Assembly (NCBI GenBank): GCA_050273025.1
Contig: CP158635.1
Span: 17,732,001-17,796,000 of the forward strand
DNA length: 64,000 nucleotides
Source: Cenococcum geophilum
Lineage: Eukaryota
Direction of reading: 5' to 3'
Below, piece by piece: positions 1,521-46,050 of this stretch. Position 1 is the stretch's first letter. The number at the start of each line of letters is the position of its first letter. Below the pieces are notes generated by a model. It worked only from the letters and a program-made list of their open reading frames with translations. It had not been told where the DNA came from and searched no databases. Position numbers and translations under genes: made by a program.

Positions 1521-4500
1521 GTCGCTCTCCAGAACGGCTTTACCTTAGGATCTTATTAAACGCATTTAACGTTATAAACTCTAACTCTTAGGACCGTAGT
1601 ATAACTATTAACTACTGTCTTTAGCAGAATAGTTAATAGGCTAATACTTAAATTCTAATTAATATAGGAGCTAGCGGCATAGGATTTATTAATAAGATCT
1701 TTATATAAGATAATGGTTTTACCCTAACCCCCCTTAACCGGCATATTAATATATTTGGATTTAACGGCAAACGCACCGTCTTAGGCCGTATCACCCACGT
1801 GGCAGCCCTAAGACTCTAATACCTAAACCATAAAGAACTGATTAAGCTTTTTGTTACCACCTTAGGTTACCTAGTAATTCTTAAATAACCTTAGATAAAG
1901 CTATATAAGGTGACTATTAACTAGAATAACCTTAAGCTTCTATTTACCGCCTCTTGTTATAAGCAGAAGTGCCTTATAACTCGCTACCCTAACCCCAAAC
2001 TAAAACCTAGAAAATCCACTAAGATTTACTAGCCTAAGATTTCCATCGATATCTACCCTACGCCTAAGAAATCCACCAGATTCCACTAACCTAAGAATTC
2101 CACCAAATTCCACTGATATAAGATTTCCACTAATATCTACTAAAGATCTGGAAATCCCACCAAACCCTATAAACTAACCCTGACTACTACACTACCCCAA
2201 ACTAAGTAGAAGCTTAAGCTTAGTATATAGGAGTACTAAAAGAACTGGTACCCTATAATAAAAAGAATACTTAAAGAACCCGAACCTAAATCTAACACCA
2301 ACTCTATACCTAATACTAAACCTAAACCTAAACAAGAAACTATATAAGAGACTATAGACGATCTAAGAGAGCTCAATACCCTAGATATCCGCATAATTAG
2401 AGCTACTCCGCTAGCTTAGCTTGCTAAGAAGCCTAAATATACGATTTTCGCTGTTATGATAGCTAATATTAAGAAAGCCTTAGCACTAAAGAAGCATACC
2501 GACCCTATTATAAAGGTACCAGCAGAGTACTATTACCGCTTAGATGCATTCTTATAAAAGAAAGCCAATAAGCTACTAGAGCACTAACCATATAACCACA
2601 AGATTATACTTAAAGAAGGAAAGCAGCCCGGATTTAGACCCCTATATAAAATGTTCTAAAACAAACTCTAAGTGCTATAAAAGTATCTGGACAAGAACCT
2701 AAGTAAAGGATTTATTAGAGCAAGCTCTTTACCTATAGCCGTACCAGTAATCTTCGTTAAGAAACCTAGTAACGGTCTACGCTTCTGCGTAGATTACTAA
2801 GCCCTTAACGCCGTTACTATTAAGAACTGATATCCGATCCCGTTAATATAAAAGACGCTAAACTAACTAAGTAAGGCTCGCTACTATACAAAGCTTAATA
2901 TTATCTCTGCATTTAACCGCCTCTATATAGCAAAGGGAGATAAATGGCTTACCGCATTTCGTACTTAGTATGGATTATTTAAATACTTAGTAATGCCATT
3001 TAGCCTCGCAAATACTTCGAGCTCGTTTTAATATTATATAAATAATATCCTGCGCCCCTACCTGGACATCTTCTATACTGCTTATATTAACGACATCTTA
3101 ATATATAGTAATAACCTAACTAAATATTAGAAACACGTTAACCTTATCCTATAAGCCCTGCACGGAGCTGGTTTATAATTAGATATAAATAAATACGAGT
3201 TTTATAAGACGGAAGTCCTATACCTTGGGCTTCTTATTTTTATAAACGGCATATAAATAGACCTAAAGAAAATTAAAGTAATTATAAACTAGTAAGAACC
3301 CGAGAATATTAAGGACGTAAGAGCCTTTATAGGATTTGCCAATTTCTACTAATGGTTTATTAACAACTTCTCCGCCCTAGTTTTACCCCTTATAGCTCTA
3401 ACCTAAAAGGATAAAGCCTTTATCTTTAATAAGGAATATAAGAAGGCCTTTGCTTATCTAAAGGTTATATTTACTACCGCGCCCGTACTTTAATACTTTA
3501 ACCTAAACTAAATAAGTGTTATAGAAGCTAACTTATCCAACTACGTTACTGGAGGCATCCTGTCTTAATATAATAAAGAGGGAGTATTATACCCCGTAGC
3601 ATACTACTTAAAATAACTAAGCCTAGCTAAATATAATTACGAGATCTATAACAAGGAACTGCTGGCTATTATTAAATACTTTAAATAATAGCGACCCAAA
3701 CTAGAAGGCGCTGGATTCCTAATTAAGGTCCTTAGCGATTATAAGAACCTATAGTACTTTACAACCACGAAACAGCTAAGCCACCGTTAGGCCCGCTGGT
3801 TAGAATACCTGTCTTGTTTCCAATTCTCAATTATATACCGCTTAGGCGTTTAAGGCTAAAAGCCTAATGCCCTAACCTAACGCTTGTAAGACGCGCCAGC
3901 ACTAAAAGAGGCACGTTCTTACCGAAATTAAACCCTACTTCGCCCTAAACTATTTAACCCTCCTACTAAAGATCTTATGGTATAAGTCCTTAAAATAACT
4001 AATTAATTAATTAAACAGATTATAACTAACGAATACCTAAATAACAAGTTTATCTAAGAGATGTTTAAGCTAATTTAAGATAGCGTTAGACACTCTAAGA
4101 AGATCTCTCTAAGTAAATATAAAGCTTGCGGAAACCGCTTATATTACTAGAACTATCTAGTTATCCCTAATTATAATAAACTTAAGCTTAAGCTCCTTAA
4201 ACATATATATAACCTACCAGTAGCCGGCCACCTAGGCTAAAAAAAAACCCTAGAGCTACTCTAACGGGAGTACTACTGGCCAAATATATATAATATGATA
4301 TGAAGGTACGTCTCTAGCTATTATATCTGCTAATAAGCTAAAGCTTCGCACGAGATATATAACGGCCTTCTAAAGCCACTACCTATTCCGGACCGAAGAT
4401 AGAAGGACGTCTTAATCAACTTTATTATTAACCTCCCTATAAGTAAGGGCTGCACAAATATTATAGTAGTCGTAGACCAACTATTTAAGATAAGACACTT

Positions 4501-10124: not shown

Positions 10125-10360
10125 TGTAATTTTTGCAGTATAGAAGAATTAAATAAGCGACTTAATTGTAAATTTATAGAAATTAAGTAGTATATATATA
10201 TGAGAAAGGTGTAGATAATAAGGGGTAATTGACCGAGTTAGTAACCAAGTTAGTAACTAAGTCGGTAAGCGAGTTAAGAGGTAGGTAACTGGAATAGAGA
10301 CAGTTTAATATACAGTCGATTTAGTGTAATACTCTGGCGGTATACTAGTAGTTAGTTACA
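10125..10360 (-). repeat. 3' LTR of Copia A
   Basis: Matches 25921-26156; adjacent to the PPT. Confidence 0.95.
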
Positions 10361-12783
10361 CCCCCCCCTAGATTTAATAGTGTAGTTAAAGCTATAGAAA
10401 ACAAGAATAAAGGTAAAAACTATACCAAAATAGGAAATTTGGATACAATTTAGGAGTAGTAAAAGGATAGGGTAACTGTGACGGGTATTGCGGATATTGT
10501 GGATATTGCGAATATCGCGTATGGAGTTAATTGATCTAATGTCAAATATCCACTAAATTCAATTGCTTTATCCAAGCTTTATGCTTCTAACGAGGTAGGA
10601 TCTTAGTAAGGCCATTGGCAGGCATCTTATCTATAGGGACCCATTAAACGTTAATCTTTTTGTCTTAGACCTCCTGTCTAAGCCAGTGCTAATAGACGTC
10701 GATATGTCGAAGTTTAGTATTAAGTTTTAGTATATCCTGTCTTAATAGGCGTATAGTCTACATATTGTCGCAGAGTAGGGTAAAATCGCGTTCTAAATTA
10801 AAGCCGATTGCCTTAGAGAATCGTTGCCACTAGATGATTTTAACAGCAGCAGTAGATAGGGAGAGAAGCTCTACTTTAGTAGTTAAGCGTATAATAGATC
10901 GCTATAGGGTTGCTTTCCAATTAATTAGACCTCTAAATAGGATAAATAGATATCCTTAAGAGCTCCGTCTAGTCTCTTTATGGTCCGCAAATGCTGTATT
11001 AAATGCTCTATAGAAGGTAATATCTTCTCCTTTAAGGTTTCTAAAGTAGACGTATACTCCATAAGCTTTGCCATAGTATTTAATAGCTATAGATTTTGTT
11101 CTAAGGCAATAGGTAATTGCTTAGTTTGCTACATCAAGGTGCTTTTAATTTAGATTAGTAAGAAATTCGGCCAGTTTAGAATGCGTCTTAGTAATATTAG
11201 GCCTTCTAAATATAGCTAGGTGTGTAAGAGAACTAACTCGTTCCTAGTAGGCTAGTGTCCTTTAAGGGTTCGTCTGCTAGTTAGACGGAGTTAGTTCTTT
11301 AGTAGGAAGTAGTAACTTAGGAAATCTACCTAGTTAAATATTAAATCGATTAGCTATCTTTTTAATATAGAAATCTTAGTAAAGCCAGAGCTTTTAACTT
11401 AGTCGATTTTGTTTAATTCGAATTCCTAGAAACTACTGTAGGTCTCCTAGTGCACGGATCTCGTATTAGTATAGTAATTTAGCTTTAAATTCTTTAAGTC
11501 TTTAAAGGTCTTTTTTGGCAAATAGAACGGCAATATTATTTACGTAGAAGAAGATAATAAGTCGTCTGTTAGTAAATAGGTAGTTAGTACCTAGTACTAG
11601 TTTTAATCCAAATTTGGCTAGGGTACTAGTAAGCTCTTTATACTAAAGTAGTGGTGAGATTTTTAATTTATATAGCGCCATAAGTAGCTCTAGGATATGT
11701 CCTTTTTAATTAAATCCTTCTAGATAGTAGCAGTATACTAGTTTACTAAGCTTAGCGTTTATAAACGCGTTTACGGCGTTATACTGTCGAATTTCTAAAT
11801 TAAATGCGGCTGCTATAGCTATAAGGGCACGGAATATTTGAGCAGCTAGGGTTACTACATAGGTCTCTTCTTTGGTAATCTATAGGTCTCCGCGAACACA
11901 TAGTTAAGCTTTTAGCTTTTAAAGATAACTATCGCTGTTAAGCTTATATTTAAAGACCCATTTTAGTAATAGAATCTACTCATTACTTACCTCTTCCTTT
12001 AGTACGATTTTAAATGTCCCTCGGCGTTTTAGGTCATTATATTCTTTTTCTATAGCCTTTTAAAAGCCAGTAGTTAATAGATACTTTCTTAGATCTTTAA
12101 GGTTCTTTAGTTTAGGAGGAAGATTATCCTAATATAGAGATAAGGATCTAGTTTGGTTGATATCCTTTACTGGTCCTATAGCAAATCCAGCGTAGTAACT
12201 AAATAGGGTAGATAGATTGGCTAGTGCTATTATATACGCTTAATATTGAATTCTTTTTAATCCTTCTAGTAGGATAAGGTCGGCAAAAGGTTTAGCTAAG
12301 ACTTCATTAGCTTATGGAGCTATATTAAATAGTTTTAGCAAACTTAGCTAGAAAGGGGTTGTTTTAATTATATCTAGGATATCGTCTTAAAGTCCTCCTA
12401 GTATAGTGTTTATTTCTAGCAGATCTAAAAATACCATTCTGCTAGGAGTTAGTAACTACTTAGTATCCTTTATAGGAGGCTCTACCAAATCATTTAATTT
12501 AGGTATAGTCATTTAATCTACATTTAAGGTAAGTCTATATAGAATAGATTTATCCTTAGACTTATCCTCGTAAAGAGGTTCTAGTAGACTAATTGTCTAT
12601 AGGGTATCTTCTAATGCTTCCCTTAGTAGGTAGTTAATATCTTAACCCTTAGGGTTATAAAATAAGGTCTTATTAAATATAACATCTTTAGTTTAAATAA
12701 CCTTACAAAGACTCGAAATCTAGATTTAATAAATATTAGTTAAATTATAGCCGACTAGATGTCTAATTAATACATAAGGAGCT

Positions 12784-12869
12784 GGTCGTCGAAAACGGAC
12801 TCTGCACCTGTACGTGGTGACGGCTACGAACCTAAGTCTTTGAAGTTCAGACTCAGAGCCAACGCAGAG
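12784..12869 (+). ncRNA. HDV-like self-cleaving ribozyme (predicted)
   Basis: P1 GGTCGTC (12784-90) / GACGGCT (12819-25) with G1-U wobble; P2 CTCTGC (12800-05) / GCAGAG (12864-69); P3 ACC/GGT; L3 TGTACGT; P1.1 GT/AC; P4 CTAAGTCT/AGACTCAG; J4/2 GCCAAC. Confidence 0.8.
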
Positions 12870-13798
12870 ACGTCGCACAGCGTGCGATACGACGTGGTGG
12901 AGGTGGTTGCGAGTATTGTAGGCAGTGGTGAAAAGTTTTCACATAGGATGGTGAGATCTCGAAAACTACTACCGTTAGTACCCCTTATAATAACAGCTAC
13001 TACACTATCCTCCTATTAAGGCACCTGTACGATCCAATATGGATATATAGCATTCGATAGCATCCCCCGACCCCCAACAGAAAGCATTAATAACCTCTTA
13101 CATTAATATATGAGCGAACGCGAATAAACAAAAATAAGCAAATATACGGCCCCTCCTAACCCCTAGGGCGATTGCCCGCGGAGCATGCGGTTACTCACCA
13201 TTAACTATTAAATACTACCTAGCAGCCTAGACAACACCGTATGGTTTTCCTATCTCCTCTTAAGGAGTAGTAACCCTTGGTAAGGGCCTAGCAACTAAGG
13301 CCTAGGCATAAAAGATACCTAGGCATATATACACACGTCCCGCTCGCCTTTTAGTATAGTAGTAGTTTATAAATAAATCCCCCTTACGCCTTTAATAGGC
13401 CCTAGGGGGGGGAGGTATAGTGTATATAGTAATAGTTAGACAAGAGATAGCATATAGGGGATGGCTAAGATATGGGAAACAATAAGTATAGTAATTAATT
13501 GGCAAGGCCTAGCTGGGACGTAGTAAACCCCAGCTGGGATAAGCTAGAGAAGGAAGTAGTGGTTTCTAAGGAGTTTAAAACATCTAAGGAGGAGGACGTA
13601 GCTGTAGGCCTATAGGGCCGCACTACGTGCAAATATAGCAATTTGGGGTTTTTTATCCAACTAAGGTGGCTTATAGGGTTTTTCCTTCCCCTAACTGCAG
13701 GGTTTTCTTCATGTAAATTATAAGTTTTCCCCCTATAACGGAGTAGTCTGCGTGGGCCAGTAGGATCCGTATCAGACGTTAATTAAAGAGTTACTACT
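12784..13798 (+). mobile_element. ~1.0 kb non-autonomous non-LTR retroposon (SINE-like), family 1 copy a, with 5' HDV-like ribozyme and TAC tail
   Basis: 15-16 bp TSD (T)AATACATAAGGAGCT 12768-12783 and (T)AATATATAAGGAGCT 13798-13813; ends TTACTACT; Copia integrase reading resumes on both sides; homologous along its whole length to 16867-17889 (inverted). Confidence 0.85.
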
Positions 13799-13878
13799 AA
13801 TATATAAGGAGCTAGTTTATCTCCCCTTTTAATTCGTTTATCTAGTATATAGGTTTTACAGCCGTATATATGCATATA

Positions 13879-13963
13879 GCCCGCGAAGCCCTACTGCACG
13901 CGTCCACGTCGCCGCGGGTGGAAACATCATTAGGAATCAATTCCTTTTGATGGCCAAGTGCAG
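13879..13963 (+). ncRNA. HDV-like self-cleaving ribozyme (predicted, canonical)
   Basis: P1 GCCCGCG (13879-85) / CGCGGGT (13913-19) with G1-U; P2 CTGCAC (13894-99) / GTGCAG (13958-63); P3 GCG/CGC; L3 TCCACGT; P1.1 CC/GG (13920-21); P4 CATCA..AGGAAT/ATTCCT..TGATG; J4/2 GCCAA. Confidence 0.9.
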
Positions 13964-13968
13964 AGGCG

Positions 13969-14340
13969 ATGGTAGAGAGCCGCCGCAGCGCGTGCAGCGC
14001 GCTGTCGTCGCGGTTCTGTGGTGTTGAGCTCGCGACGCGTACGATGTATCGTATAAAGCTTCGCACAAAGCATCGCCCTCAACAACACCAGGAGCCTTAC
14101 TGCCTCCGCTTGAGGCTCCTGCTCTACCACCTAGGGAGGCCTATTAAGGGAAACTGGGATACGAAAACCACCCGATGTACGACTACCTGGCTCGTAGCCA
14201 GGCCCGAAACTGGCCTTATTAGCCAGTCGACGTGGACGCGTCCTAGGCGTACGACAGGACACCCTTGGGCTTGCACTAGCTCTGAGACCGTAGGGACACG
14301 GCGAGGGCGTAGGGAACCTCTTTTTATAAGAACTTGTTAA
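13969..14340 (+). CDS. Possible 123-aa ORF directly downstream of the ribozyme; unknown product
   Basis: Longest ORF in the supplied track, with its ATG 5 nt after the ribozyme. No recognisable domain; may be a chance ORF in GC-rich sequence. Confidence 0.2.
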   Translation: MVESRRSACSALSSRFCGVELATRTMYRIKLRTKHRPQQHQEPYCLRLRLLLYHLGRPIKGNWDTKTTRCTTTWLVARPETGLISQSTWTRPRRTTGHPWACTSSETVGTRRGRREPLFIRTC

Positions 14341-16866
14341 GGTTAACGCGTCGCAGATACCTCGTACGAAACTTGTTAAGGCCCCAAGGCCACCGCGAAG
14401 AACTTGTTAAGGCCCCTGCCTAGAGAACTCGTTAAGGCCCCTCTATGAGGGCCTATCTGGTATCTGGTACTCCCAGGTGACTCAGAAGAGGGTCTTAATA
14501 GGCGTGGTGCGCGCGACCTGGACGCGACAGTGACGCGATAGCGACGCGACGGCGACCAGACGGCTCGACGAGGTGGAAACACGGGCAAAGCTCTAGGCAG
14601 CGGAAACACAGGCCAGCTTCGACGGCCCCATGGCGACCAGGTGACTCACAGGAGGGTCTTAATAGGCGTGGTGCACGCAACCTGCGCATATACATATGGG
14701 GGAGGCTCTAAGGAAACACAGGCCAGTCGTACGAGGTCTCGACAGTTAGAGACACAGGCCAGCTTATAAAAAGGGGGGACACAAGCTTGGTTAGTAGGAG
14801 AGGGCAGAGCAGGTCGCCTGGCGCGGGACCGAGCATCTACGACCCCTCCTGCAAGACACGGTCGGCCTGTTATGAGGAGACTCTTACAGGCAACGCGAAA
14901 CGGAGACTAGTAGTATATAGGGTGTTGCGCCCCTATACTACTACTAGCCCCCGCGGGGCGTAGTGCGTAGTAGCCACTGCTGGCTCTAGGGACCTCACCC
15001 CTTAGCTGGGCTCTGACCCCTAGTGCACCTGGTAGGTAGGCAGGATTACGTCCTGGCCGGAGAGACTACTACGTGGCTCGAGAGAACGGATGCGCGTGTT
15101 GGTGTACTAATAGACAGGACTGCTCGCTAGGGCAGTACGCTAGTGAGGTACGCTTAAGGAGCAAACAGGAGTTACTTAGGCGGGAGAGGTTTGGCAGGCC
15201 TTAACTGTAGAAGGTGCACCCACTCCACACTGCAGGATGCAGCCACGACGCCCTTGTAGGATTACGCCAGTAGGCGCGTGAGACGGGAGTTGCGACCCCT
15301 GCAAATGGCAGCTTATGCCCGTGCCGGCGGAAACAATGAAGAGAGGCGTGAAACTAGAGGCTATGGAAGGCTCCTAAGCCGTGCGAAAGCGTACCAACTC
15401 TAGGAGGAAACTCTTATACAGACTGCTAGGGGGCAGACTGGTACTTGGGCTAACCCCATTATAAGATATCCGTAAGAACTGGTGAGAATCCCTGTGCGAT
15501 TGGTGGTGGCAGCTAACTGCTTGTGGCTGGGATAAAGCACTGGAAAACTGAGGTAGAGGCCTGGATAAGCAGGCATAGTAAACTCTACTGTATTATTAGT
15601 ACTACTAGTATATATAACTACCTGCCAGTCTACAGCCATTGTGCTGCAGACGACCTCTACTACAACCAGTCTACGGCTGTCGCGCTATAGGCAATCAAAC
15701 TATAGAGGACCGAAGGCGTACCGCAGGCGTACCGCAGGCGCACCGCAGACGATGCACTGCTAGGGTAGCTATAGTAGGGGATAGGGGAAGGGGGCTGGCC
15801 TGTGTTACTATTAGCACGTAAAATATAAGGTGTATAGGGGAATTGGTATTTATACCCTATACAGACAACCTTGTGAAAATTTTTCCTACTAGGGTGGGTT
15901 TATGTAGCAAGGTTCGCCCTTCTAAAATACTATTAGTAGCCTACTTTTGGGGAGAGTAGCTATTAATTACTAATTCCCTACCTATTCTTAAGCAAGGAGA
16001 AGAATAGGTTACATTACCGAAAAAAGTCGTATAGGAATAACTGGTAGTTGTCTCCAAGCTGGCAAACTATATAGAGCCCTTTGTTTTTATATGCAAATGT
16101 TACTAAATCTATCTTTTAGAGCGCTTTTTCTACTCTAGAAACGGCAGAATACAGCAGAAATAGATAAAAGAGCCAGGATTTCTTTATTTCCTTGGTGCAA
16201 ACTAAATATTAGAGAGCAAAATACCAGGACAAAACTCCCCTAGCATTTAAAACGGACCAGAGTGTCCACTTAGTTACTAGTACATGTTAAGCTGCCTAGG
16301 AAGGATTCATGTATATAGGACTATAGCGCCATAGCCTAGAGGCTGCATGCGCAGTATTGTACATAGTATAATACAATTGGATATAAAAAAAAAAAATATA
16401 AAAAAAAATATGCATATAGGTAAGTAAAGGCAGCTTATTATAGGCAACCTTATAGGGAGTTCTCTACCCTAGCTGTTTATTTAGTATTTAATTAAGGGCG
16501 TATCTAGCGGTAAGGAACGCCTCTAGTCCTAAAAACGGGGGTAAGGAAGCTTCTAGCTATATAGCCCTAGATTATTCTATAAGGGTTTCGTCTAAATTAT
16601 TTAGCTTTGCCATTTTATTCCCTTATATACAGGGCTTGGCATTTAAAAGTAATGCCTTTATCTGCGCACTATGTCTATAGGATATCTCCTATCTATCTAA
16701 AAGCTCGCTTATTATCGCTCTAAAAGAAGATAACATCTTAGTAGAATTATATTTTAATTAGCTAGTAAGTCTTACGAATAATAGGTAGGATAGTAGCTTT
16801 ATCCTTATTCTTAGAGGTATATATAAAATTAAATTTAGAATATATGCAATAGAAGTGTATTATATA

Positions 16867-17889
16867 GTAATAGTTCTTTAATTAACGTCTAATACGGATC
16901 CTATCTTGGCCTACGCAGACTACTCCGTTATAGGGGGGAAAGCTTATAATTTACATAAAGAAAACCCTGCAGTTAGGGGAGGAAAAACCCTATAAGCAGC
17001 CTTAGTAGGATAAAAAAACCCCGATTTGCCATATTTGTACGTAGCAGCGGCCCTACGGGCCTACTACACATCCTCCTCCTTAGATGTTTTAAACTCCTTA
17101 GGAACTACTACTTCCTTCTCTAGCTTATTAAAGCTAGGGTTCACTACGTCCCAGCTAGGCCTTACTAATCGATTGCTATATCTTATTGTCTCTTTATGTC
17201 CTATATCTTGCCTATCCCCTATATGCTATCTCTTATATAGACCACTACTATATACGCCTTGCCTCCCCCCCCCCTAGAGCTATTAAAGGCGTAAGGGGGA
17301 TTCATCTATTCTAACTACCGTAATACTAATAAGCGAGCGGGATATTATGTGTATTTGGGTATCTTTTATACCTAGGCCCCAGCTAGGCCCTCTCTAAGGG
17401 TTACCACTCTGTTAAAAGGAGATAGGGAAAACCGTAGGTCGCAATCCAAGCTACTAGGTAGTATTTAGTAGTTAAAAACGGTAAGTAACCGTATGCTCCG
17501 CGGGCAACTGCCCTAGGGGTTAGGAGGGGCCGTATATTTGCTCGTTTATTCGTTCGCTTATATACTTATTTATCCGTTAATATAAGGTTGTTAATGCTTT
17601 CTATTAGGGGCTAGGGGATGCTTTTAAAAGCTATTTATCTACGTTGGATTATATAGGTGCTTAGTAGGAGAACTAGTGGCTGTATTATAAAGGAGTACCG
17701 TTAGTAGTGGTTTTTGAGATCTCACCATCCCATATAAAAACTTTTTACTACGCCCCACAACGTATATAACCACTAGGTCCTACTTACACGCGCTATATAA
17801 CGTCTCTGCGTTGGCTCTAGGTCTGAACTTTAAAGACCTAGGTTTATAGCCGTCACCACATATAGGTATAGAATCCGTTTTTGACGGCT
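16867..17889 (-). mobile_element. ~1.0 kb non-autonomous retroposon, family 1 copy b, with 5' HDV-like ribozyme and TAC tail
   Basis: 14-bp TSD AAGTGTATTATATA at 16853-16866 and 17890-17903; minus strand ends GAACTATTAC; same 5' start as copy a. Confidence 0.85.
17804..17889 (-). ncRNA. HDV-like ribozyme, RIP-damaged copy
   Basis: Minus strand reads AGCCGTC-AAAAACGGA-TTCTAT-ACC-TATATGT-GGT-GACGGCT-AT..CTAGGTCT..AGACCTAG-AGCCAAC-GCAGAG; it differs from 12784-12869 only by transitions. Confidence 0.7.
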
Positions 17890-18977
17890 AAGTGTATTAT
17901 ATATCTATTATCGTTATACCCTGGTTTTCTAAGGGTAATAATATTAAATGCTACCCACTTAAATAGTCGAGTGGCTAAAAATTCATATTCTTGTCTTTAA
18001 GAGATCTGCTATATATACTTTGCTAATAAGCAAGTTTCGCATTTAATTTTAAGCGGTGCTTATTTAGTAGTTAATTCGGTTAGCTCTACGCCATTAACGT
18101 ACTTAGGAAGCTGCTTAATAGCGTTAGGTCCTATATAGCTAAGTATTTTATACCATTTAATAGCTGTGGCTCTAACTAGTTTATAGGCCATATAGCTAGG
18201 CTAAAATCTCTTAGAGGTTAAGAATGTTAATTAAGTCGAATCTAGGGTATTTATAGGCTCTCTATATATCAGCGCCTAGTGGCCCCCTACTTATTTCGTA
18301 TAGTAGACTATTTCGTTAGTTGCTAGACGGTATAGTATATTTCGTCCTAAGTCAAAATAGACATCGTTATTAGTAGCTCTTAATAGAGCTATAATATTTG
18401 TAAATATAGTTAGTACTAGTGCTATATGGGATAGCTTTATTTTTAACTTCCTAGTAGGTATATTAACAGTAATAGTTACTATTCTATAGGCTTGTATTTT
18501 TTCAAAATTTCCGCCAGTAATTAGGTAGTCGTCTTTTATAGCTAGGTAGGAGAAGGTAAAGTCTTCTTAGTTATTATAGACGTGGGTATCTACACTAGGG
18601 TTAAGTATTTAGGTATTCTAGAGTTTAAATAGAAATTAACTAGTACTAAACACGGCAGCATAGCTAGTTAGGGTCTTAGACGGTGGGGTTTTAGAATTAA
18701 AATTAATTGTAAATTCTATACTCTTTACTTCCTATTCTTTTTTTAAAATGTAGTTAACTATATATCTAACCTAGGGTATAGAAGACATCATTTCTTCTAT
18801 TTTTTTAAGGACGTCTGGCCTTGGTTTCCACCCTTAAGGGCACTTCTACTCGGCAATATAGTAGCAGTCGCTATATCGATGTTTGCGACTATAGATGCAT
18901 TTCTTATACCATTTTAAATTAGGATTTGAATTGGGGTTAAAATCTAAATTAGAATTGGAATTGCCTTATAGGGTTAT

Positions 18978-21900
18978 TGTTGGGAATAGGGCAAATTGCC
19001 GCCATGTGAGGCAAATTGCCGTCACATGGGGCAAGTTGCCGTCACGTGTCGCCGCGGCGCTAGCGTGGCGAGGAGCCTTAAGCTCTTTGCCCTTCCTAAT
19101 AGAAGAAATATATATAATAACAACCATTATACTACCTACAGTCTGTAGATACGTGATATTACCTTATAAGTCCAACACTAATTAGTGGTTAACTTTACAG
19201 TTATGCTATAGAATAGCTAGGTATTCACCAAGAAGAGATAAGCCACTGTACCAGTGCTACTCGTGCTAAGGGAAGCTGTTTTTTAAGGTTAGAACTGGTC
19301 CTAAACCTTAAATAGAATTCTTTTATAAATCTAAGGATCTAAAGGCCAGAACTGGTCCTAAGCCTTCCCCAGATTATAGATTCTTGCGTCTATTACGCAG
19401 AATAACACGCTTTACGAGTCTTTGTAATTTAAGGCTAGAACTAGTCCTAAGCCCTATAATCGCAAATATATGTCATAAACGCGTACTAAACAATAATCCC
19501 TATACCACTAATATTCCCTTCCTCTAAAGATATAACTATGGCCACTCTAAACGACTAGAGAGACTCCTTACTACTAGGGGTAGCTATATACGCGAAACTT
19601 ATTAATAAAGATTAGGACGCATTTACCTTTAATATAATAACCTATACTATAAAATAAGTTAACGGCTTTTTTTTACACTATATTCTATTCTACCAAGATA
19701 GCTATTACGCCTATTTACAGTTATGGGAATACTTTAGGGAGGGTTTTATAGGATGGACCGCCGATACCTAGGCACTTGGCAATATTAATATTATTTAGGA
19801 TTTTTAAGACTCCCTCTAAAGGAATAGGGTGTATATTACTAAGGACGGTAACCTAATTATTAGTAATATTTACGCCGTTCTTATTAGTATAGAAGAACTA
19901 GTATAGACGGAAGCTAAGATTATACGTTAACTACGGAAACCTAAAATTAACCTATATTCTTTAGAAGGCAACTTTAATTTGGAACGAAACTCCTAGAACG
20001 CTACTTTCCTACCTAGAGGTACTCTCCTACCTAGAGATGCTCTTCCTTTACCTCTACTACCTCTAACTCCTCTATCCTAGCTAACTAATAAGCCTTTATT
20101 TTAAGAAGTCACGAATCTAATAAAGGTATATTTAGATAAAGAGAAGAAGTTTAGAGGAGAATTATACGATATACTTGGAGTAAAACTATAGGTCTTTTAT
20201 AACTGCTGTAATAAGGTTAGAATTTAACGCTACTAGTTCTATTATGCTTTCTCTATTATATTAAAGGGACGGGCGGCAACGTTCTATTACGACTATATTA
20301 TAGGTAAAAACTATAGCTTTAATATAATGCTTTAGCTTACTAGAGCCTACTTTAAAACTAATAAAAACCGCTAACTCTATATATCTAAATAGCGGGAGAC
20401 TATATTCTAGAGAGTTATCGCTTCTAACCTAACAATGATTTACCTAGAGTGTCTTTAACTACTCTTTAATAAACTTTAGAAAATTTAATATGGTTTTACT
20501 AAAACCTACTAAAACAAGAATAGTCTAAGGGACTAGGTTATCTTAGCATACTATAGCGTTCTTAAGTGTAACTTAGCGCTATATAAACCTGTAGATATAT
20601 TTAAAGGAGTATATACCAAACTACGCTCTGCTATAGGCACTGTAATATAAATATAAAAACCCCAATAATTCTATACTAAAAACCCTATTTAAACCGGGAT
20701 TCTAGACTAATATAATTATAACTAGACTAATCGAATATATGGTGGCCGGAGTAGGGGATATAGTAAAGGGTATAATTAACGTTGACTATAAAGCAATTAT
20801 AGAGGTCCTTATAGAGGTTTATTTTAGAATAACTATTAGAAGAAGTGCTATATTTATAAGAAGCCAAATTGCTAGTTAAATAAATACTCTCTTAATAAGC
20901 AAAAGGAGGCATATAATAAGTTTTAATAAAGTGTAAGAAATATTGGAAATTATAAGGTTACTATAGCCTACTTCCAAAGCTTTTTAGTCTAATATAAAGG
21001 CATAGAAGACCTTAAGGATAAGGTTAATAAGGCCGAATAGCTCCTTATAGATATAGATATTAAGGACTACTCTCCCGACCAATACTTTACTAAGTATGGT
21101 AAGGTAAATGGCATATAAACTATCGCTATCCTTAATAACCAATCTACGTTCTATTCTATTATAAAGTTAGATATCTTTAACGAGCTAAAGGAAAGTTCCG
21201 CGTTTTCCTTTAACGACAGATACTTAGCGAATATCTTCTATAGTATTATACTAGATACTAGAGCCGTAGGAGTATCTATAGTAGGAGAACCTTAAGTTTA
21301 AGCTCTTTAGTAGCTTAATAGCTCTATTTAAATTAACTAATTAACGGCAGGCTAATATATAATTTACTTTAGTAAGGGTACTATAATCTCTTTCGGCACA
21401 ATTAAGGTCTAAACCCTATTAGGATATATTACCTTCTACATTATTCCCACAAATACCCTATTCCTATTCTGTATCTAAGATATAGATAAATTAGGCGTTA
21501 AGCTTAATAACCTTAAGAATATACTTATTTAGGGAGATAATTAGGTGCCCATTATACGCAAATAGGGTTACCCTTAGTTACTCCTCTAATAACCAGAAAG
21601 GAGCGTTACTTAAAGTCACTTAACCAAGTCAGAGCTATATTAACTACACCGTTGTTTTGGCCACCTATCTATTTACTAACTGCTTAGGGTTCTTTAACAA
21701 GTAGGTTATAAAGTTAAGGTTAAGGCAATTAAGCATCTTATAAAGTACTATTATTACTGCTAAATAAACCAGAAGTCCCCTGGCCAATTTAAGTTCACCC
21801 TTAAAGATAACTATAACTTTAACTTCTATATTATTATTAATGTTATATATCTTAACGGCAAGCTAGTCCTCTAAGCTATTAACTTATTAACCTCCTTCTA

Positions 21901-24859
21901 AGCCGCACGTTTCTTAAGGGATATATTAGCTAGAAACGTATAGGATACCCTTTAGTTATGCTAGATCGATGTCTACCTAGGACCCCCTAATTAAATTATT
22001 CACGATATAGGAAAGAACTTCTTATCTATAGAGTTTCGATAATAGGCAAAAGTAATAGCAATTAAGGTTAAGGAAGTCCCTATTAAGGCATATAATAGTA
22101 TTAAAAAAGTAAAGCGATACTATACGCCATTGCGCTAAGTATATAAGATTATTTCTTTAGAACTAGAGAACGCTAGTAAAGAAATTATCTTATAGATGGC
22201 TGTTAAGGCCATTAACGATTCCGCTGGCCTAGATGGGCTCATACCCACGTTACTAGTCTTTAGCGCTTACCCTTAAATAACTAATAATTCTCCACTATCT
22301 CCCTCTATTGTGTAATAAGCTAAGGCTATTCGTAAAGTAATAAAGGAGGTATAACGTCTATACGCTATGCGCTAGGTTAATAACGCACTAGGAATAAGAA
22401 ATGGCCTAAATACCTTAACTACGCTTAATCTGCCACTCTAATCTAAAGTACGGGTATAGCGTAAAAAGGGAGGATGGTTAGGCCCACATAAACTTATTAT
22501 AATTAATGGTTAAACTTATACTCTTTAGATACCCCATAGACCTACTTAATTCCGTTTAACCGTTATTAGGCTTTATTACAAAGATAATAGTTCTAAGCCT
22601 TTATAGGATGCCCTAGAAGATGCCTTAGAAGATACCCTAGAGGAGAACTACGATTAATGTGTCCTAGAAGGCGACTGTGATCCTAATATAATTATAGTAG
22701 ACGTGCCGTAACCACGACGCGGTAGAGGTCGCCTAAAGGGATTACGAAATCGCCAATATCTTATTAATTTTAAAGAGCAATTTGTTGCTACTATAGAGAG
22801 TAAAGTCAAGTTATTAATGGCCTTTATAACAGCTAAAGAGAAGGCTAACTTTAAGCTCGCAAAATAGCTCTAAAAGGAAGGTCGTATTATAACTTTAGGA
22901 GCTCCTTTCTAAGTATCTAATAAGTAGGAAATCGACAGTCTTATTGCAAGAGAAGTCTTTAAATTTGAGAAGTATGACCCTACCAAGTTTGATAGAATTC
23001 GCATCTTTAAGTTAAGAATGGTCAACGAGATTAAGGGTAAGGCTACTAACGCCCTATTTAAGAAATTAAGGCTTGTTATCTAAGGCTACAATAATAACGG
23101 TAAGGAGACGATCCTTACGTAATTCCCTACGATTTAATAAGCTAGTTAGCGAGTTATTATTGCACTAGCTCCCTCCTTAATAAAGAACAGAATGGCAGTT
23201 TATTTGCGAGATATTACTTAGGCCTACACCTAATTAAAAACGCGCCTTTAGCGCTTAATACTAGTATATCTTCTAGAGCAAATTCGCCACTAATATCCCA
23301 AAGATACGATTATGGTTGTGCTTAAGCCACTATATAGAATTATAGAGGTAGGAACTTATTAGTGGGCTACCTATAACAAGCACCATAAAGAGAAGCTTCT
23401 AATAACTACCTCTATATTCGATCCCTACTTCCTTATTATAACCACAGAAACTCCATTCGAAATTATCGGTATATAAACTAATAATATAATTATCTTAGGA
23501 GACAATTAATTCTTAGCTTTTAAGGAAGATGAGCTAGTAAAGGCAAATCTTATAGTAAAGCTAAAGGAAAGACTTAATATAATAACGCCATTACTCTTTA
23601 ATGGATGTATCCTTTCCCTAAACAAGAACTCTATTGCTTTACGCCAGAAGGGTTAAGGTAAGAAGATTAACGTTGTTAACGTTAATTCCCTAAAATAAGG
23701 ATACGTAAAGCAACGCGCTTGCGGAGCTTATATTGCTTCTATCTGTTAGCCTAAGGCTTTCTTTAATCTCTCTATTGCCGCTTAACACTAGGAACTAACT
23801 AAGGAGGATATTTTTGCCCTAAATAAGCGCCTTTCCTAGCAAATAACCTATCTTAATTGGGGACTACTCTATATATCTATTAATCTTCCCACCGCTAAGC
23901 TCTTTATATTTATTAATGGGTTATTTATAAATAATAAAGATTTTAGCTTCTAGCTAGGATATAAGATTATTATTGCAAATAAATCTACTAGAGAGAATAA
24001 CTTTATAATCTATAGTAATCTTATCTATTAGAGCTTAACTAAAAGTAAGCGCGTTACTTAAAGCGTTTTAGTATTAGAGATATATAGAATAGTTAGCGGA
24101 GTTAATATAGCAATTGCAATTGGAACTACCCTTAAGATAATTATAGATCGGCTTAAACTTCCCGCTATTTCTATAATCATATATACTAACTTATATTCCC
24201 TCTATAAGTGTTTAGTCAAGCTTAGTACTATAAAGGAGAAGCGTCTTATAATTAATATTATAGCCCTTCGGTAATCCTATAAGCGTTAAAAACTCTTTAA
24301 AATTTAATGGATTAATGGCTAAGATAACCTAGTAGATGCGATAATAAAGGCAAACCCAAATAAGATACTAGAGACGTTTGTTAACACAAATACTCTATAT
24401 ATATAAGTTAAAGGTTAGGTTAAAAGGGAGTAGAAGGATTCTATAGACCCTAATTCTAAATAGCTAATTAGGATTTTCCATCCCTAGGATAAAAAATTGC
24501 TATTAGCTCGCTTACGACTAGCGCCTTAGCGGCCCACTCGTCTTCGCGTTAACCCCTAACACCCTTCTTCTTCTTCTTCCTTCCCTTAGCTTTATACCTT
24601 TATATAGTAGCAATCTATAAGTGTCTATAGATGGTAACTATAAAAAGAAGAGTTGCTAGTGTTAGGAATAGGGTAAATTGCCGCCATGTGAGGCAAATTG
24701 CCGTCACATGGGGCAAGTTGCCGTCACGTGTCGCTGTGGCGCTAGCGTGGCGAGGAGCCTTAAGCTCTTCGCCCTTCCTGATAGAAGAAATATATATAAT
24801 AACAACCATCATACTACCTATAGTCTGTAGATACGTGATATCACCTTGTGAGTCCAACA
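18978..24859 (+). mobile_element. GalEa-clade Ty1/Copia LTR retrotransposon, full length, RIP-inactivated, inserted in Copia A gag
   Basis: 200-bp LTRs 18978-19177 and 24660-24859 (TGTT...AACA); TSD GTTAT (18973-77, 24860-64); CTAATTAGT (RIP form of CTGATCAGT) right after the 5' LTR; Cx2Cx4Cx4H knuckle ~20845-20888; K(S)RLVI(Q)G ~23063; G(MQ)T(DD) ~23468; N(PA)DA(MT)K ~24326. Confidence 0.9.
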
Positions 24860-25920
24860 GTTATAAAGGCAGAGCTATTAGCAGTAGTAGACGACGATGC
24901 TACTTACTACATACGGTAGTGCTCCTTAAATTCTTCAATTAGGTCAATAATAAATAGGGCTTCTTCGTTCTTACGTTCCTTATAAATAAGGTCTACTTCT
25001 AGAGCTCCTATAAAGCTAGAAGAGATGGGCTTAATTGCTTAAACGAAATCATAGTATAGCCTAAATTCTTATACGTCTGGTAGCTCCAATTGTTCCGCAA
25101 GCTTATAGACGTTCCGCTAGCTGTTTAGCCATTTATTAATGCTCTACTTTTTATTATAGGCTTTTAAAGCCGTGTATTAATTAAGGACGTCGTGCTTTTA
25201 ACCTAATGTGGTAGGAGCTAGAGCTTTCTTAAGTGCTTATAGCCGTCCGTATACTATATCTAGGCCGTTAATAAGAGGGAGGTAGGCTACTAACGTCGTT
25301 CGCACAATGTAGTTGCTAATGTCGTTAACAGCCTGTTTTTGCTTTTAGTATATTCGGAGATCGTCCTTATATTTAGAATAGAGCTAGTTATAGGTAATAA
25401 GTTAGTTTGGTTCTAGCTTCGCTATTAATATAGCCGTCAGTAGTACGTCTCTTAGTATAGGTCGACTTGGTGGTTCTAGCGTTAAAAGATTCTTTTTCTT
25501 CTTTAATAGGTTACGATATTGCCATACCTTATTTATTTTGGCTGTGTCTTAGATAATAAAGAACCACTATATCTAATTAGAGGGCTAGTTAAGGATAAGG
25601 TTAACTTTTAATTTATTTATAGTTGTTATTTTTAGGATTTTAACAGGTTAGGTAGGGTCCAATTGGCGGCTTAGCAAAAACCTTATTTGACGTTCCGAAC
25701 TTTCGATTTGATTAGACGGTTCGTTCGTCGGTTGGGTACGGTCGTTAGTCGAGGTCGATTGTCCGTTCGTTTAATAGGTAAAGAAGCTTAAGACACTATA
25801 AAGGTAGTAGAAGTAGTGACTTCTTAAATAAGGTAGTGGATTGATTGCTTTAACAGATAGTGCAACAGGTAGTGCGATTTAATTAATTGGTTAGTAGGTA
25901 GTGCGATCCGGGCTTATAAC

Positions 25921-26156
25921 TGTAAGCTTTATAGTGTAGAAGAATTAAATAAGCGACTTAATTGTAAATCTATGGAAATCAAGTGGTATATATACATGAG
26001 AAAGGTGCAGATAATAAGGGGTAATTGACCGAGTCAGTGACCGAGTTAGTGACTAAGTCGGTAAGCGAGTCAAGAGGTAGGTGACTGGAATAGAGACAGT
26101 TTAATATGCAGTCGAGTCAGTGTAGTACTCTGGCGGTGTGCTAGTAGTCGGTTACA
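25921..26156 (-). repeat. 5' LTR of Copia A
   Basis: Matches 10125-10360; adjacent to the PBS. Confidence 0.95.
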
Positions 26157-26570
26157 ATATATCTCTATCTATTTTAGGGGGGGCCTAAAATAGAACCCCT
26201 AGCAGTTAAACTAGGCGTTAAAGGTAGTGCAGTATAGGAAAAATAGGCCTATATTTTTATAGCGGGCTAAAAATATAGAGGAGCTGGAAGGAAGAAGGCG
26301 GTATAGCACGGGCGTATAATTAGGAGCGCTCACGCGGAGGTTAAGAGGGGGGAAAAGGAAAGGAAGGGAGAAGCGAGCAAGAAAGAGAGGCGGTGAGGTT
26401 AAAAAACTAGATAGCATTTTTAATAGAGGCGTGGAACTTTAAAAAGAATAAGAGGTAAAGTTAGGAAAAGAAAATAAATTACCAAATAAAACGGTTAGTT
26501 TTCCGCAAGGGCTACGGAAAAACGTAGATTCCGAGTGGTGGCTTAGCAGAATGTTTACGGCTCTAGAGAC

Positions 26571-26717
26571 GGATTTGCACGAAGCTCTACACGAAGCTTT
26601 GCACGAGGCTCTACACAAAGCTCTACACGAAGCTCTACGTACAGAGGCTCTGCACGAGGCTCTGCACAAGGCTCTGCGCGAAGCTCTGCGTACGGAGGCT
26701 CTAGACAAAGCTCTGCA
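26571..26717. repeat. Tandem 12-bp minisatellite, consensus GCACGAAGCTCT (~12 units)
   Basis: Visible periodicity; source of the HEAL/ASCR low-complexity ORFs. Confidence 0.9.
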
Positions 26718-27888
26718 TCGGGTCCCCGTTATATTCCCAATAGCCTCCTGTCGACCTAAATCAGGTTATCTTATCACCGACTTAGCTACCTCCCATTGAC
26801 TTAGTCATTGACTTAGTCATTAACTCGGTCATTGACTCGGTCACCTACTCCTTGTTTCCATTGCCACCCCCCTACACCCTTCTCGTTCTCATTTCCTATA
26901 CCTTTCCTATATATATATAGAGGCTATTAGAGCCACATTTAACAGATAGAGTTATCATTCTTTTTTTATAATTAGTGCATAGACTACTAATCAACAGTTA
27001 TAAGCCCGGGTTGCTTACCGTATTACCCCTATTTAACTAATTTATTTATTTAATTATACCCCTTATTAAATTACTACCTATTACTAAATCCTTCGACCTT
27101 TCTGTAAGCACCTTTTTAAAATAACTTATTAACCACCTACCTAAGCTATTACTATAATAGTAATATTATCGAGCCAAGCTCATTAGGACGAATGGATTAA
27201 CCTTATTAGGCTTCGCGCCCGAATAGGAGACGTATAGGAATATGTCAACCCCTTAACCAAATAGGATAAATTGCCCCAACTAATTAAACTAGTTTTTCCT
27301 AGGCCTTAAGATATAAAGCTAGAAATAACCTCCTATATAGCTCTTTCTAAGGATAAAAAGGACGAGCTTTAAATTCTCTATAAGAGGTATAAAATAATAA
27401 AGAAGGAGTATAAGAAGTAGAAGGCAGCTTTAACTTCTCTATAAAGCTATATTACTAGTATAGTAGCCAGATATCTAAACACCTATATACTAGGTATTAA
27501 CTTAGTATATAATGTACTAGTAACTCTTAAGAAGAGGGTTGCCCCTACTAATACTGCACATTAGCTCTACCTATCCACTTAATACGCAAAGGTTAAAAAG
27601 GGCCCAAAGAATTAGAACTTTGAGGCCTGGTTATAGCAGTAGGAGAAGACGTATAATAACTGTTAAAAGATTAAACTGTTAGATGTATAAGGCGACTAAG
27701 TAATTAGAGACTTTCTACTAGTAATAAAGCTAGTATTACTAAATTAGGCCTTAACGTAGAGGGTCGAATTTAATAAATATAACTGGGCCAGTAACTACGT
27801 AATATCTATATATTAACTGGTCGATATATATTAAAACTATTAATAATTAAAAACTGCCTAGTAGAAGAATAGAGCTTAGCTTAGTGCT

Positions 27889-31800: not shown

Positions 31801-32640
31801 TAGGCCCTCGCCCCTTTACTAAGTGTTGGAGTCTCCTAGGGTTCTATAGTGGGTGCTGTGGAAATTGCAAGTAGCGGGATTATGGGGCTTAATGTTTAGC
31901 GTACGATAAAAATTCTTAACCTATAGCGGCGGCAGCAGGAGGAGTATTGGAGGGTGAGGATTGGATTGTGGAATTGGAGGATAATAAGGAATAGATAAAA
32001 GTCACTAAATTTAAACTGCTAGGTCTCCTCTCTTTTACTATTTTAATTTTATTTTATGCGTATAAAAGCCTTATATAGGCTTTATACGAGGATCTATATA
32101 AATCTCTATATATGGAGGCTTTATACGAAGCTCTGTACTGAGCTCCGTATATAGAGGCTCTGCACGGCTCTGCGTACGATGGTTCTACGTACGACGGCTC
32201 TACTATGGAGGCTCTATATAAAAGCTTTATGCGAAGCTTCGTGTAGAGCTTCGTGTAGAGCCTCCGTATGCAGAGCTTTGTATAGAGCTTCGTGCAGAGC
32301 TTCGTGCAAAGCTTCGTGCAGAGCTTCGTGCAGAGCTTTGTATAGAGCTCCGTGCGCGGCTTATTCTATAAAGCTCTTATAAGCTTTATATCTATATAAT
32401 ATTACTTATCCTTAGGATATTTGAATAAAAGTAGTACCATTATAAAGCGCTTTATAAGCTCTATAAATCTATATTAATAGAAAATTTATTTATTTAATAT
32501 TAGGGGTTATATTATAAGTGTAAGTATATTAAGGGAATTTTGCTAAGACTATCTAGAGACTATCCGGATAGTCTCCGGATACTATTAGCTAATAGGTCTA
32601 TTATCTAAGAGGCCTATCCGGCCTATTCTCCGCAAGTCTG
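28839..32640 (+). mobile_element. hAT DNA transposon with RIP-degraded transposase (~29000-31250)
   Basis: TIR CAGACTTGCGGAG; 8-bp TSD TTTGAAAC/TTTAAAAT (RIP pair); subterminal GGATA/TATCC repeats; motifs DIWTS ~29683, (D)NA..N(D) ~29876, GHVINL ~29981, L(D)NC(T)R(W)..S ~30277, IP(GM)SD..ERVF ~31109. Confidence 0.92.
32077..32385. repeat. Head-to-head inverted array of the GCACGAAGCTCT 12-mer
   Basis: Left units read ACGAAGCTCT and right units read AGAGCTTCGTGC; orientation flips at the near-palindrome GCGAAGCTTCGT, ~32231-32242. Confidence 0.8.
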
Positions 32641-45829: not shown

Positions 45830-46050
45830 CTGGAAGGATTTTGATTTTCCTGATTGTCCTGACCGCCCTGACAGGCTCCTAGTAGGATTTTAATTTTCCT
45901 GATTGTCCTGATCGTCCTGATCGTCTTAATCGTCCTAGTCGTCCTGATCGTCCTGATTGTCCTGATCGCCCTGATCGCCTTAATAGGCTCCTAACAGGAA
46001 CCTAGTATTTCCTAATTATACCAATAGGCTCCCGGCAGGCTTCTGACAGG
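45830..46050. repeat. 9-bp tandem repeat (CCTGATCGT)n in the Copia B 3' UTR
   Basis: Direct periodicity, strongest at 45898-45980. Confidence 0.85.

What the first reader, a model, noticed from the sequence alone, without database searches (positions are those of the whole stretch)
12768..17903. Three independent retroposon insertions within ~0.5 kb of one Copia integrase gene
Seen: removing the three inserts restores a continuous integrase (..(M)HFYC..(Q)SD..E(Q)NG.A(E)..RTPY..HMH(V)YGCK..KLAP(RA)..). The sites are about 60 and 440 bp apart, and I saw no such elements elsewhere in the 64 kb. Both copies of each TSD share most RIP changes, which suggests insertion after the host Copia was largely RIPed. 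Inference: a target preference for this Copia family or for TA-rich RIPed DNA, or local re-insertion.
Basis: partly seen in the sequence, partly recalled or inferred. Interest (0 to 1): 0.7.

Follow-up and report, generated by a model that had tools for sequence, protein, structure and literature searches.

The report
Three retroposon insertions in one Copia
Three separate jumping-gene copies really did land within about 530 bases of one dead fungal retrotransposon, but they show no liking for that host family; they go for TA steps, which the fungus's own anti-repeat mutation system makes plentiful in old repeats, so the cluster is most likely a chance pile-up.

Summary
The three inserts are real and independent. 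Each has its own target-site duplication, and sibling Copia copies are empty at all three sites. A and C are different subfamilies of a ~1-kb retroposon with a TAC tail. B is a young poly(A) chimera. Each family shares its 3' end with a LINE of this genome.

Local re-insertion is refuted. Preference for this Copia family is not supported: 0 of 55 other A/B copies lie in it, and 39 siblings (133 kb) hold 2 such inserts against 1.2-2.2 expected.

The TA-rich target idea is supported. Poly(A) elements insert at T|A (28 of 31); TAC-tailed ones at TA (29 of 29), mostly TAWWW (26 of 29). TAWWW is 2-8 times denser in RIP-mutated repeats than in little-mutated elements, but no denser here than in the rest of the window.

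Uniform insertion predicts about 0.02-0.45 such triples per genome; a similarly tight triple occurs outside Copia. Evidence for local clustering is mixed. Both families begin with an HDV-like ribozyme fold, which this scan had already noted on other DNA of this genome. Verdict: mostly chance plus an ordinary TpA nicking bias.

The parts
10125..26156 (-). Host Copia LTR retrotransposon, RIP-decayed; about 5.5 kb once the four nested inserts are subtracted; LTRs near 10125-10361 and 25920-26156, 5-bp TSD ATATA
   Evidence: direct repeat D10; ends and TSD; RVT_2 hit E 9e-21; full-length siblings; 148 candidates in the genome
12768..12783 (+). Left TSD of A (16 bp; right copy 13798-13813)
12784..13797 (+). 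Insert A: non-coding ~1-kb retroposon with a (TAC)n tail; RIP load 0.15; nearest copy 94% on contig C5
   Evidence: no Pfam hit in 3 forward frames
12784..12869 (+). HDV-like double-pseudoknot fold at the exact 5' end of A (P1 with G-U first pair, P2, P3 ACC/GGT, P1.1 G-C plus U-A, P4, C in J4/2)
   Evidence: descriptor hit; 96.9% of cells paired in 13 copies against 28-42% for slid controls; no Rfam ribozyme hit; cleavage not tested
13868..13878 (+). Left TSD of B (right copy 16408-16418); with the T at 13867 it forms the perfect palindrome TATATGCATATA
13879..15625 (+). Insert B, 5' part: 1747-nt non-coding head, 99% identical to copies elsewhere, joined in other loci to different 3' partners at the same last base
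13879..13963 (+). HDV-like fold at the exact 5' end of B (L3 TCCACGT, P1.1 CC/GG, J4/2 CCAA)
   Evidence: 98.5% of cells paired in 12 copies against 32-57% slid; core helices invariant, so no covariation; all 26 other B heads start at this G
15626..16407 (+). Insert B, 3' part: 5'-truncated piece of a VNTR-bearing poly(A) retroposon; its last ~140 nt are 92-93% identical to the 3' end of an intact LINE
   Evidence: 97-99% to L058-L060; LINE match
16420..16852 (-). Host integrase stretch between B and C
16867..17889 (-). Insert C: same family as A, different subfamily; 39 listed relatives at 91-93%; ribozyme-like head damaged by C-to-T/G-to-A changes
   Evidence: descriptor did not find it
17890..17903 (-). 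TSD of C at its 5' end (other copy 16853-16866), 14 bp, identical
18975..24864 (+). A fourth insert in the same Copia: an LTR element of a very large family (1355 candidates), RIP load 0.16
   Evidence: no Pfam hit in six frames

Best explanation
Three separate target-primed reverse-transcription events at two or more times. (1) Shown: two LINE families with APE endonuclease and RT exist; A/C share a tail with one, B with the other. Inferred: these LINEs copy them in trans. (2) Shown: insertions of both kinds fall at TpA steps (T|A for poly(A) elements, TAWWW for TAC/ATT-tailed ones). Inferred: the endonuclease nicks the TpA step and the RNA tail anneals to the nicked end. (3) Shown: TAWWW is much denser in RIP-mutated repeats than in little-mutated elements, and about half of the nick-site TAs read CA/TG/CG in some sibling. 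Inferred: RIP makes many of the targets, so dead repeats of any family act as landing pads. (4) With about 2000-2500 such insertions in 178 Mb (an estimate) and some regional unevenness, a triple in ~0.5 kb is a tail event that needs no special host. Order: Copia, most of its RIP, then A and C, then B.
For: T|A at 28 of 31 poly(A) sites, background P(T before A) 0.47, P 6e-8; TA at 29 of 29 TAC-tail sites, null 0.51, P 4e-9; TAWWW 26 of 29, null 0.37; ATT-tail 7 of 7 (13 of 82 rows dropped as wrong or ambiguous TSD calls, and 2 window sites left out). TAWWW per kb: 15 in a little-mutated LINE, 29 in B, 35 in an intact LINE, 68-127 in RIPed stretches, 139-167 in the two pieces under 100 bp. Nick-site TA reads CA/TG/CG in a sibling at 21 of 44 sites, including young inserts L032, L058, L059. 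RIP loads: host 0.30-0.35, A 0.15, B 0.013-0.016, C at most 0.27. No Copia enrichment. A second triple within about 720 bp outside Copia sequence in L149, and tight groups in L133 and L124. 8 of 29 A copies have another LINE-type element within 1.5 kb or sit in one, against 1.7-3.4 expected.
Against: Uniform expectation of such a triple is only 0.02-0.45 per genome. The B-C stretch is not richer in the motif than the rest of the window (TAWWW 119 against 102-109 per kb), so the motif does not explain this spot. Tail spacing on C1 0-13.7 Mb shows no kb-scale clustering (5 gaps under 5 kb against 4.67 expected); the excess over 0-14.05 Mb comes from one dense block. RIP-type TAs are not used significantly more than their share (21 of 44 against 482 of 1234, P 0.27). 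The nick TA itself is invariant among siblings at sites B and C. One of the 8 neighbours (L011) is a tandem array, not independent. The total insertion number is an estimate; the ATT-tailed LINE was not counted.
Confidence: 0.72

Rival explanations
1. A local hot spot: this locus or its neighbourhood was unusually accessible for a long time, or an earlier insert made it so (A and C form a 1-kb inverted pair around ~0.5 kb of host, and B later landed between them).
For: Triple improbable under uniform insertion; 8 of 29 A copies have close LINE-type neighbours; other tight groups (L149, L133, L124, L004, L094); ribozyme-head gaps under 15 kb on C1 are 11 against 5.9 expected even without the window (P 0.03); the same Copia also took a fourth, LTR insert.
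Against: No excess of gaps under 6 kb without the window (3 against 2.4) or under 5 kb outside one block; two other inward-facing A pairs (L091, L092) have no B or A between them; no chromatin data in hand.
Confidence: 0.18
2. The LINE machinery prefers this Copia family or its integrase region.
For: Both inserts found inside siblings lie within about 350 bp of the window's cluster (L086, L083); counting the window, 5 in 139 kb has P 0.01-0.09, though the window was chosen for its cluster.
Against: 0 of 55 other A/B sites in the family; 2 in 133.4 kb against 1.2-2.2 expected; upper bound 3.4-5.1-fold; two different LINE machineries would need the same taste; sibling coverage is centred on that region by design.
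Confidence: 0.07
3. Local re-insertion, or one complex event, produced the three inserts.
For: A and C are one family in opposite orientation; tandem and chimeric copies exist elsewhere (L094, L098).
Against: A and C are only 78.5% alike and differ by about 30 transversions; each has closer relatives elsewhere; three distinct TSDs with intact host between; RIP loads differ tenfold between A and B.
Confidence: 0.02

Closest known systems
Human L1/Alu target choice, 5'-TT|AAAA with cleavage of the TpA bond (PMC6007223 and PMC8565326; passages read)
   Same: APE-type endonuclease, dispersed insertion, nick at a TpA step, 10-20-bp TSD, poly(A) priming for B.
   Different: No T-tract/A-tract here: the poly(A) motif is about AT|AR and the TAC-tail motif TAWWW; in this fungus TpA is the product of RIP.
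RTE-related SINE insertion signature (PMC6007223; passages read)
   Same: The first base of the TSD tracks the microsatellite tail of the element, as with TAC/ATT tails and TA-starting TSDs here.
   Different: The upstream T-stretch described there was not looked for beyond 6 bases; LINE clade not determined here.
Nested TE clusters in RIP fungi, e.g. 78 clusters in Mycosphaerella graminicola with a Tad1-clade LINE in 30 primary insertions and no obvious preference (PMC4522978; passages read)
   Same: Multiple independent primary insertions into an LTR base element, LINE-type inserts with 12-bp TSDs.
   Different: The passages read report no nick motif; the inserts here are non-autonomous and ribozyme-headed.
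MINE (WEIRD-MGL) chimeric retrotranscripts and Mg-SINE of Magnaporthe (PMC2104539; passages read)
   Same: B is a full-length non-coding head fused to a 5'-truncated retroposon inside one TSD; the same head is fused elsewhere to two LINEs and to an A-type copy.
   Different: No ribozyme is mentioned in the passages read; sequence relation to WEIRD not tested; the head here is 1.75 kb (WEIRD 1113 nt).
R2 SIDEs and R2/R1 hybrid SIDEs of Drosophila (PMC3414825; abstract and outline read)
   Same: 5' HDV-like ribozyme plus a LINE 3' end, non-autonomous, 14-bp TSDs.
   Different: SIDEs are rDNA site-specific and rare; these are dispersed in hundreds of copies, and the descriptor found no ribozyme at the heads of the partner LINE loci examined.

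Membership tests
Non-autonomous non-LTR retroposon (TPRT) | 10-20-bp variable TSD at each copy | tested here: met
   TAC-tail 12-17 bp, poly(A) 11-15 bp, mode 13; window 16, 11-12, 14
Non-autonomous non-LTR retroposon (TPRT) | 3' end shared with an autonomous LINE | tested here: met
   B ~140 nt at 92-93% with LINE L119 (1362-aa APE-RT-RNase H ORF); A/C ~65 nt at 80-84% with L127/L133/L134, which end in ATT rather than TAC repeats, so the exact partner of A/C may be a sister family
Non-autonomous non-LTR retroposon (TPRT) | No coding capacity | tested here: met
   no Pfam hit in 3 forward frames of A or B; no open frame of 130 aa or more in window B
Sequence-specific non-LTR elements (R1/R2/Tx1 type; definition recalled) | Copies insert at one defined target sequence or repeat family | tested here: not met
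   flanks are unrelated, spread over many repeat families; 0 of 55 in this Copia
HDV-like ribozyme (features recalled, not from a call) | Nested double pseudoknot P1-P2-P3-P1.1-P4 with G-U first pair and C in J4/2 | tested here: met
   A shows 3 pairs with two-sided change, mostly in P4 (6-7 of 500 shuffles reach the score, weak because copies are related); B core invariant
HDV-like ribozyme (features recalled, not from a call) | Element 5' end coincides with the predicted cleavage site | tested here: met
   heads start at G+1 straight after the TSD in the aligned copies
HDV-like ribozyme (features recalled, not from a call) | Match to a curated Rfam model | tested here: not met
   only a chance ribosomal-leader hit at E 0.46 in 12700-18000
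HDV-like ribozyme (features recalled, not from a call) | Self-cleavage in vitro | not testable with these tools
   RNA reads showed no listed pile-up of ends at 12784 or 13879; random-primed library, mostly other copies
MINE-type chimeric retrotranscript | Full-length cellular or retroposon RNA fused to a 5'-truncated LINE or SINE within one TSD | tested here: met
   head ends at the same base in the window, L032 and L037; partners include both LINEs, a VNTR element and an A-type copy
Tad1-clade LINE (partners) | RT phylogeny | not tested
   only domain content was checked
Ty1/Copia LTR retrotransposon (host) | RVT_2-type RT, integrase before RT, LTRs TG..CA, 5-bp TSD | tested here: met
   integrase by motif only, no rve hit

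The most novel reading that the evidence does not exclude
RIP feeds its own targets: by turning CpA/TpG into TpA it converts dead repeats into preferred nick sites for APE-type LINEs and their ribozyme-headed passengers, which steers new insertions away from genes and expands the repeat compartment; on top of that, one retroposon insertion raises the chance of the next nearby, giving real kb-scale hot spots such as this triple.
Probability: 0.2. Interest if true: 0.6.

Novelty: new member of a known kind. Interest (0 to 1): 0.3.

Why it matters
The cluster itself is a nested insertion of a known sort. The reusable result is the nick motif of two fungal LINE machineries, a TpA step. Because TpA is what RIP produces, it offers a simple, testable route by which genome defence could channel LINEs into already dead repeats and help RIP-positive genomes grow without hitting genes. 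Two literature searches and one on Tad1 target sites showed no title or abstract start stating this; most of those papers were seen only as listings, and subscription journals are not in the library.

Tried and rejected
Rfam scan of the region: no ribozyme family. tRNA scan of the window: none, so no tRNA-derived SINE head. Pair counts for the B head each had one helix out of register by my error; one search is the correct count. The idea that +/- A pairs about 5 kb apart elsewhere are duplications of this whole locus was rejected: L091-L093 have no B or host Copia between them. The idea that B is a single SVA-like element was replaced by head-plus-truncated-partner. A second LTR family as control gave 0 inserts in 79.6 kb of 24 copies against 0.7-1.3 expected, uninformative, and its copies are younger. 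The 433-bp query used to collect siblings under-samples copies with an insert inside that stretch, and only 39 of about 148 candidates were read, 20 at 8 kb and 19 at 3.4 kb. Strain comparison: contigs are too short to bridge inserts; a contig of run X5 crosses B's 3' junction, so B is in a second sample; one contig of X7 starts at B's right TSD with 10 unlaid letters, a hint of an empty site only; the X1 joint skipping A has other letters in the TSD and is best read as a sibling Copia; X1 may be the window's own sample. RNA run X21: 1424 reads laid, 61 at 99% or more, so family copies are transcribed but nothing is shown for this locus. Search for ribozyme-headed SINEs in ascomycetes listed no such paper. 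Search of earlier findings for a target-preference note found none. Coordinates beyond the first 100 matches per pattern were not listed, so spacing tests cover contig C1 only.
Full report
Observation. The window is an AT-rich repeat region of a 178-Mb, 7-contig genome whose repeats differ almost only by C-to-T and G-to-A changes, mostly giving TpA; I read this as fungal RIP. Between 12768 and 17903 lie three inserts with their own target-site duplications: A 12784-13797 (+), B 13879-16407 (+), C 16867-17889 (-). The three nicks span 528 bp of host. In 29 sibling copies of the host the sites are empty: A 27 of 27 covered, B 26 of 29 (3 with a 2-base alignment offset), C 28 of 28 covered. The host is a Copia element from about 10125 to 26156 with a 5-bp TSD and an RVT_2 hit; it also carries a fourth, LTR-type insert at 18975-24864. 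In an uninterrupted sibling read with X at stops, C falls at the HFYC motif and B and A in the SH3-like part that follows the integrase core. Only these three tails occur in the 64 kb.

What the inserts are. A and C belong to one non-coding family of about 1 kb with a TAC-repeat tail. A degenerate head motif matches 456 times and a tail motif 473 times, with 0 control matches; pairing them on contig C1 gives about 142 copies there, roughly 750 genome-wide by scaling, in line with 863-894 search candidates. Their last ~65 nt match a LINE family at 80-84%. B is a chimera: a 1747-nt head, 99% identical to other copies, joined to the 3' piece of a VNTR-bearing poly(A) element, 97-99% identical to a different set of copies. 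The same head is joined at the same last base to other partners elsewhere, as described for WEIRD-MGL chimeras in Magnaporthe (PMC2104539, passages read). B's last ~140 nt match an intact LINE at 92-93%. The head motif of B matches 273 times; the shared B/LINE tail motif 1182 times. Both families begin with an HDV-like fold at their first base (defining features recalled). I saw this before looking at earlier notes, but the scan had already recorded it on other DNA of this genome, so it is not a new result of this report.

Independence and order. A and C are 78.5% alike; A's nearest copy is 94% on C5 and C has 39 listed relatives at 91-93%. Local re-insertion is therefore out. The share of C/G columns that read T/A in the window is 0.30-0.35 for the host, 0.15 for A, 0.013-0.016 for B and at most 0.27 for C, inflated because C's own subfamily was not in hand. 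The two copies of each TSD disagree at 1 of 18 polymorphic columns against 7.2 expected under independent later mutation. So most host RIP came first, then A and probably C, then B.

Is there a preference for this Copia? No sign. Of 29 other A copies and 26 other B copies, none lies in the family; one sits about 270-295 bp outside an LTR. That test is weak alone, since only 0.25-0.5 are expected. In 39 of about 148 candidate siblings, 133.4 kb of host sequence holds 2 LINE-type inserts (L083, L086) against 1.2-2.2 expected, which bounds enrichment at about 3-5-fold. The window's own density is some 35 times the siblings'. Both sibling inserts are within about 350 bp of the window's sites, but coverage is centred there.

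Is there a target motif? Yes. Of 82 TSD calls I dropped 13 as wrong, duplicate or ambiguous and left out 2 window sites. Poly(A) elements insert at T|A in 28 of 31 cases, none at C|A; counting the two dropped ambiguous poly(A) rows L060 and L125 as misses gives 28 of 33. TAC-tailed elements have TA within the first three TSD positions in 29 of 29 and TAWWW in 26 of 29; ATT-tailed 7 of 7. All three window sites fit. This resembles L1, whose endonuclease cuts the TpA bond (PMC6007223, PMC8565326; passages read). TAWWW occurs 15-35 times per kb in little-mutated elements and 68-127 times in RIPed stretches of 190 bp or more. At 21 of 44 sites with siblings the nick TA reads CA, TG or CG in some sibling, also for young inserts, so RIP-made TAs are used, though not more than their share (P 0.27). 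At site A the TA is of this kind; at C the nick TA is invariant and the next two bases are RIP-type; at B the nick TA is invariant. The motif explains why these elements collect in RIPed DNA. It does not explain this spot, since the B-C stretch is no richer than the rest of the window.

How unusual is the triple? With 1650-3000 insertions and 50-100% of the genome open to them, 0.02-0.45 triples within 520 bp are expected, 0.07-0.12 at 2500 insertions. Evidence on clustering is mixed. For: 8 of 29 A copies have a LINE-type neighbour or host against 1.7-3.4 expected, and L149 holds three insertions within about 720 bp outside Copia sequence. Against: tail spacing on C1 0-13.7 Mb is Poisson-like, with an excess only from a dense block at 13.7-14.05 Mb, and head spacing under 6 kb shows no excess without the window. 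A two- to threefold regional enrichment would bring the expectation near one per genome (my inference: triples scale with the square of local density).

Verdict. Real, independent insertions; TA-step targeting supported; Copia-family targeting unsupported; local re-insertion refuted. The cluster is most likely a chance pile-up in RIPed DNA, of the nested kind reported in other RIP fungi (PMC4522978, passages read), with a local hot spot as the main rival. PMC6911290 (abstract and outline) reports a weak palindrome preference for nested plant LTR elements; B's site is a 12-bp palindrome, but I did not test palindromes across sites. PMC6765202 (passages) was used for background on ribozyme-headed retroelements. 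No supplementary files were read.

Noticed in passing
window 12810-12811 with 12826-12827: P1.1 of the A-family fold is G-C plus U-A in all 13 aligned copies for the U-A pair, instead of the usual CC/GG (recalled); both letters of the U-A pair could be RIP-type changes fixed in the master copy.
   Followed up: partly
L094 1159-7084 (G000:C3): Tandem array of two A copies, a B head and a poly(A) tail, with the same TSD-like spacer between units; looks like repeated insertion at one site or co-copying.
   Followed up: no
L098 3020-5494 (G000:C4): B head fused directly to a nearly full A-type copy inside one TSD.
   Followed up: partly
G000:C1 13.7-14.05 Mb: Dense block of LINE-type tails (18 of 133 listed tails in 0.35 of 14.05 Mb); possibly centromeric.
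   Followed up: no
L119, L120 (G000:C7): LINE copies with intact 1300-1362-aa ORF2 and 99% identity among some copies despite heavy RIP elsewhere; recent activity.
   Followed up: partly
L003, L007, L059, L133: Several A and B copies sit inside copies of the ATT-tailed LINE.
   Followed up: no
L129 934-1053: A LINE inserted into the 3' tail of a B-type element, its TSD being part of that tail.
   Followed up: no
L032, L035, L044, L047-L049, L054: The poly(A) partner element carries a 35-41-bp VNTR of up to 30 units plus a 26-bp repeat.
   Followed up: partly
window 50575-54203 and 57299-60919; 26560-26718 and 32223-32355; 45839-45993: A 3.6-kb direct duplication at 79.5%, an inverted pair of 12-bp tandem arrays, and a 9-bp tandem array.
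   Followed up: no
L152 3326-3650; L158 4255-6359: Other inserts in sibling Copias: a 324-bp element with terminal inverted repeats, and a 2.1-kb internally repetitive insert next to the position equivalent to site C.
   Followed up: no
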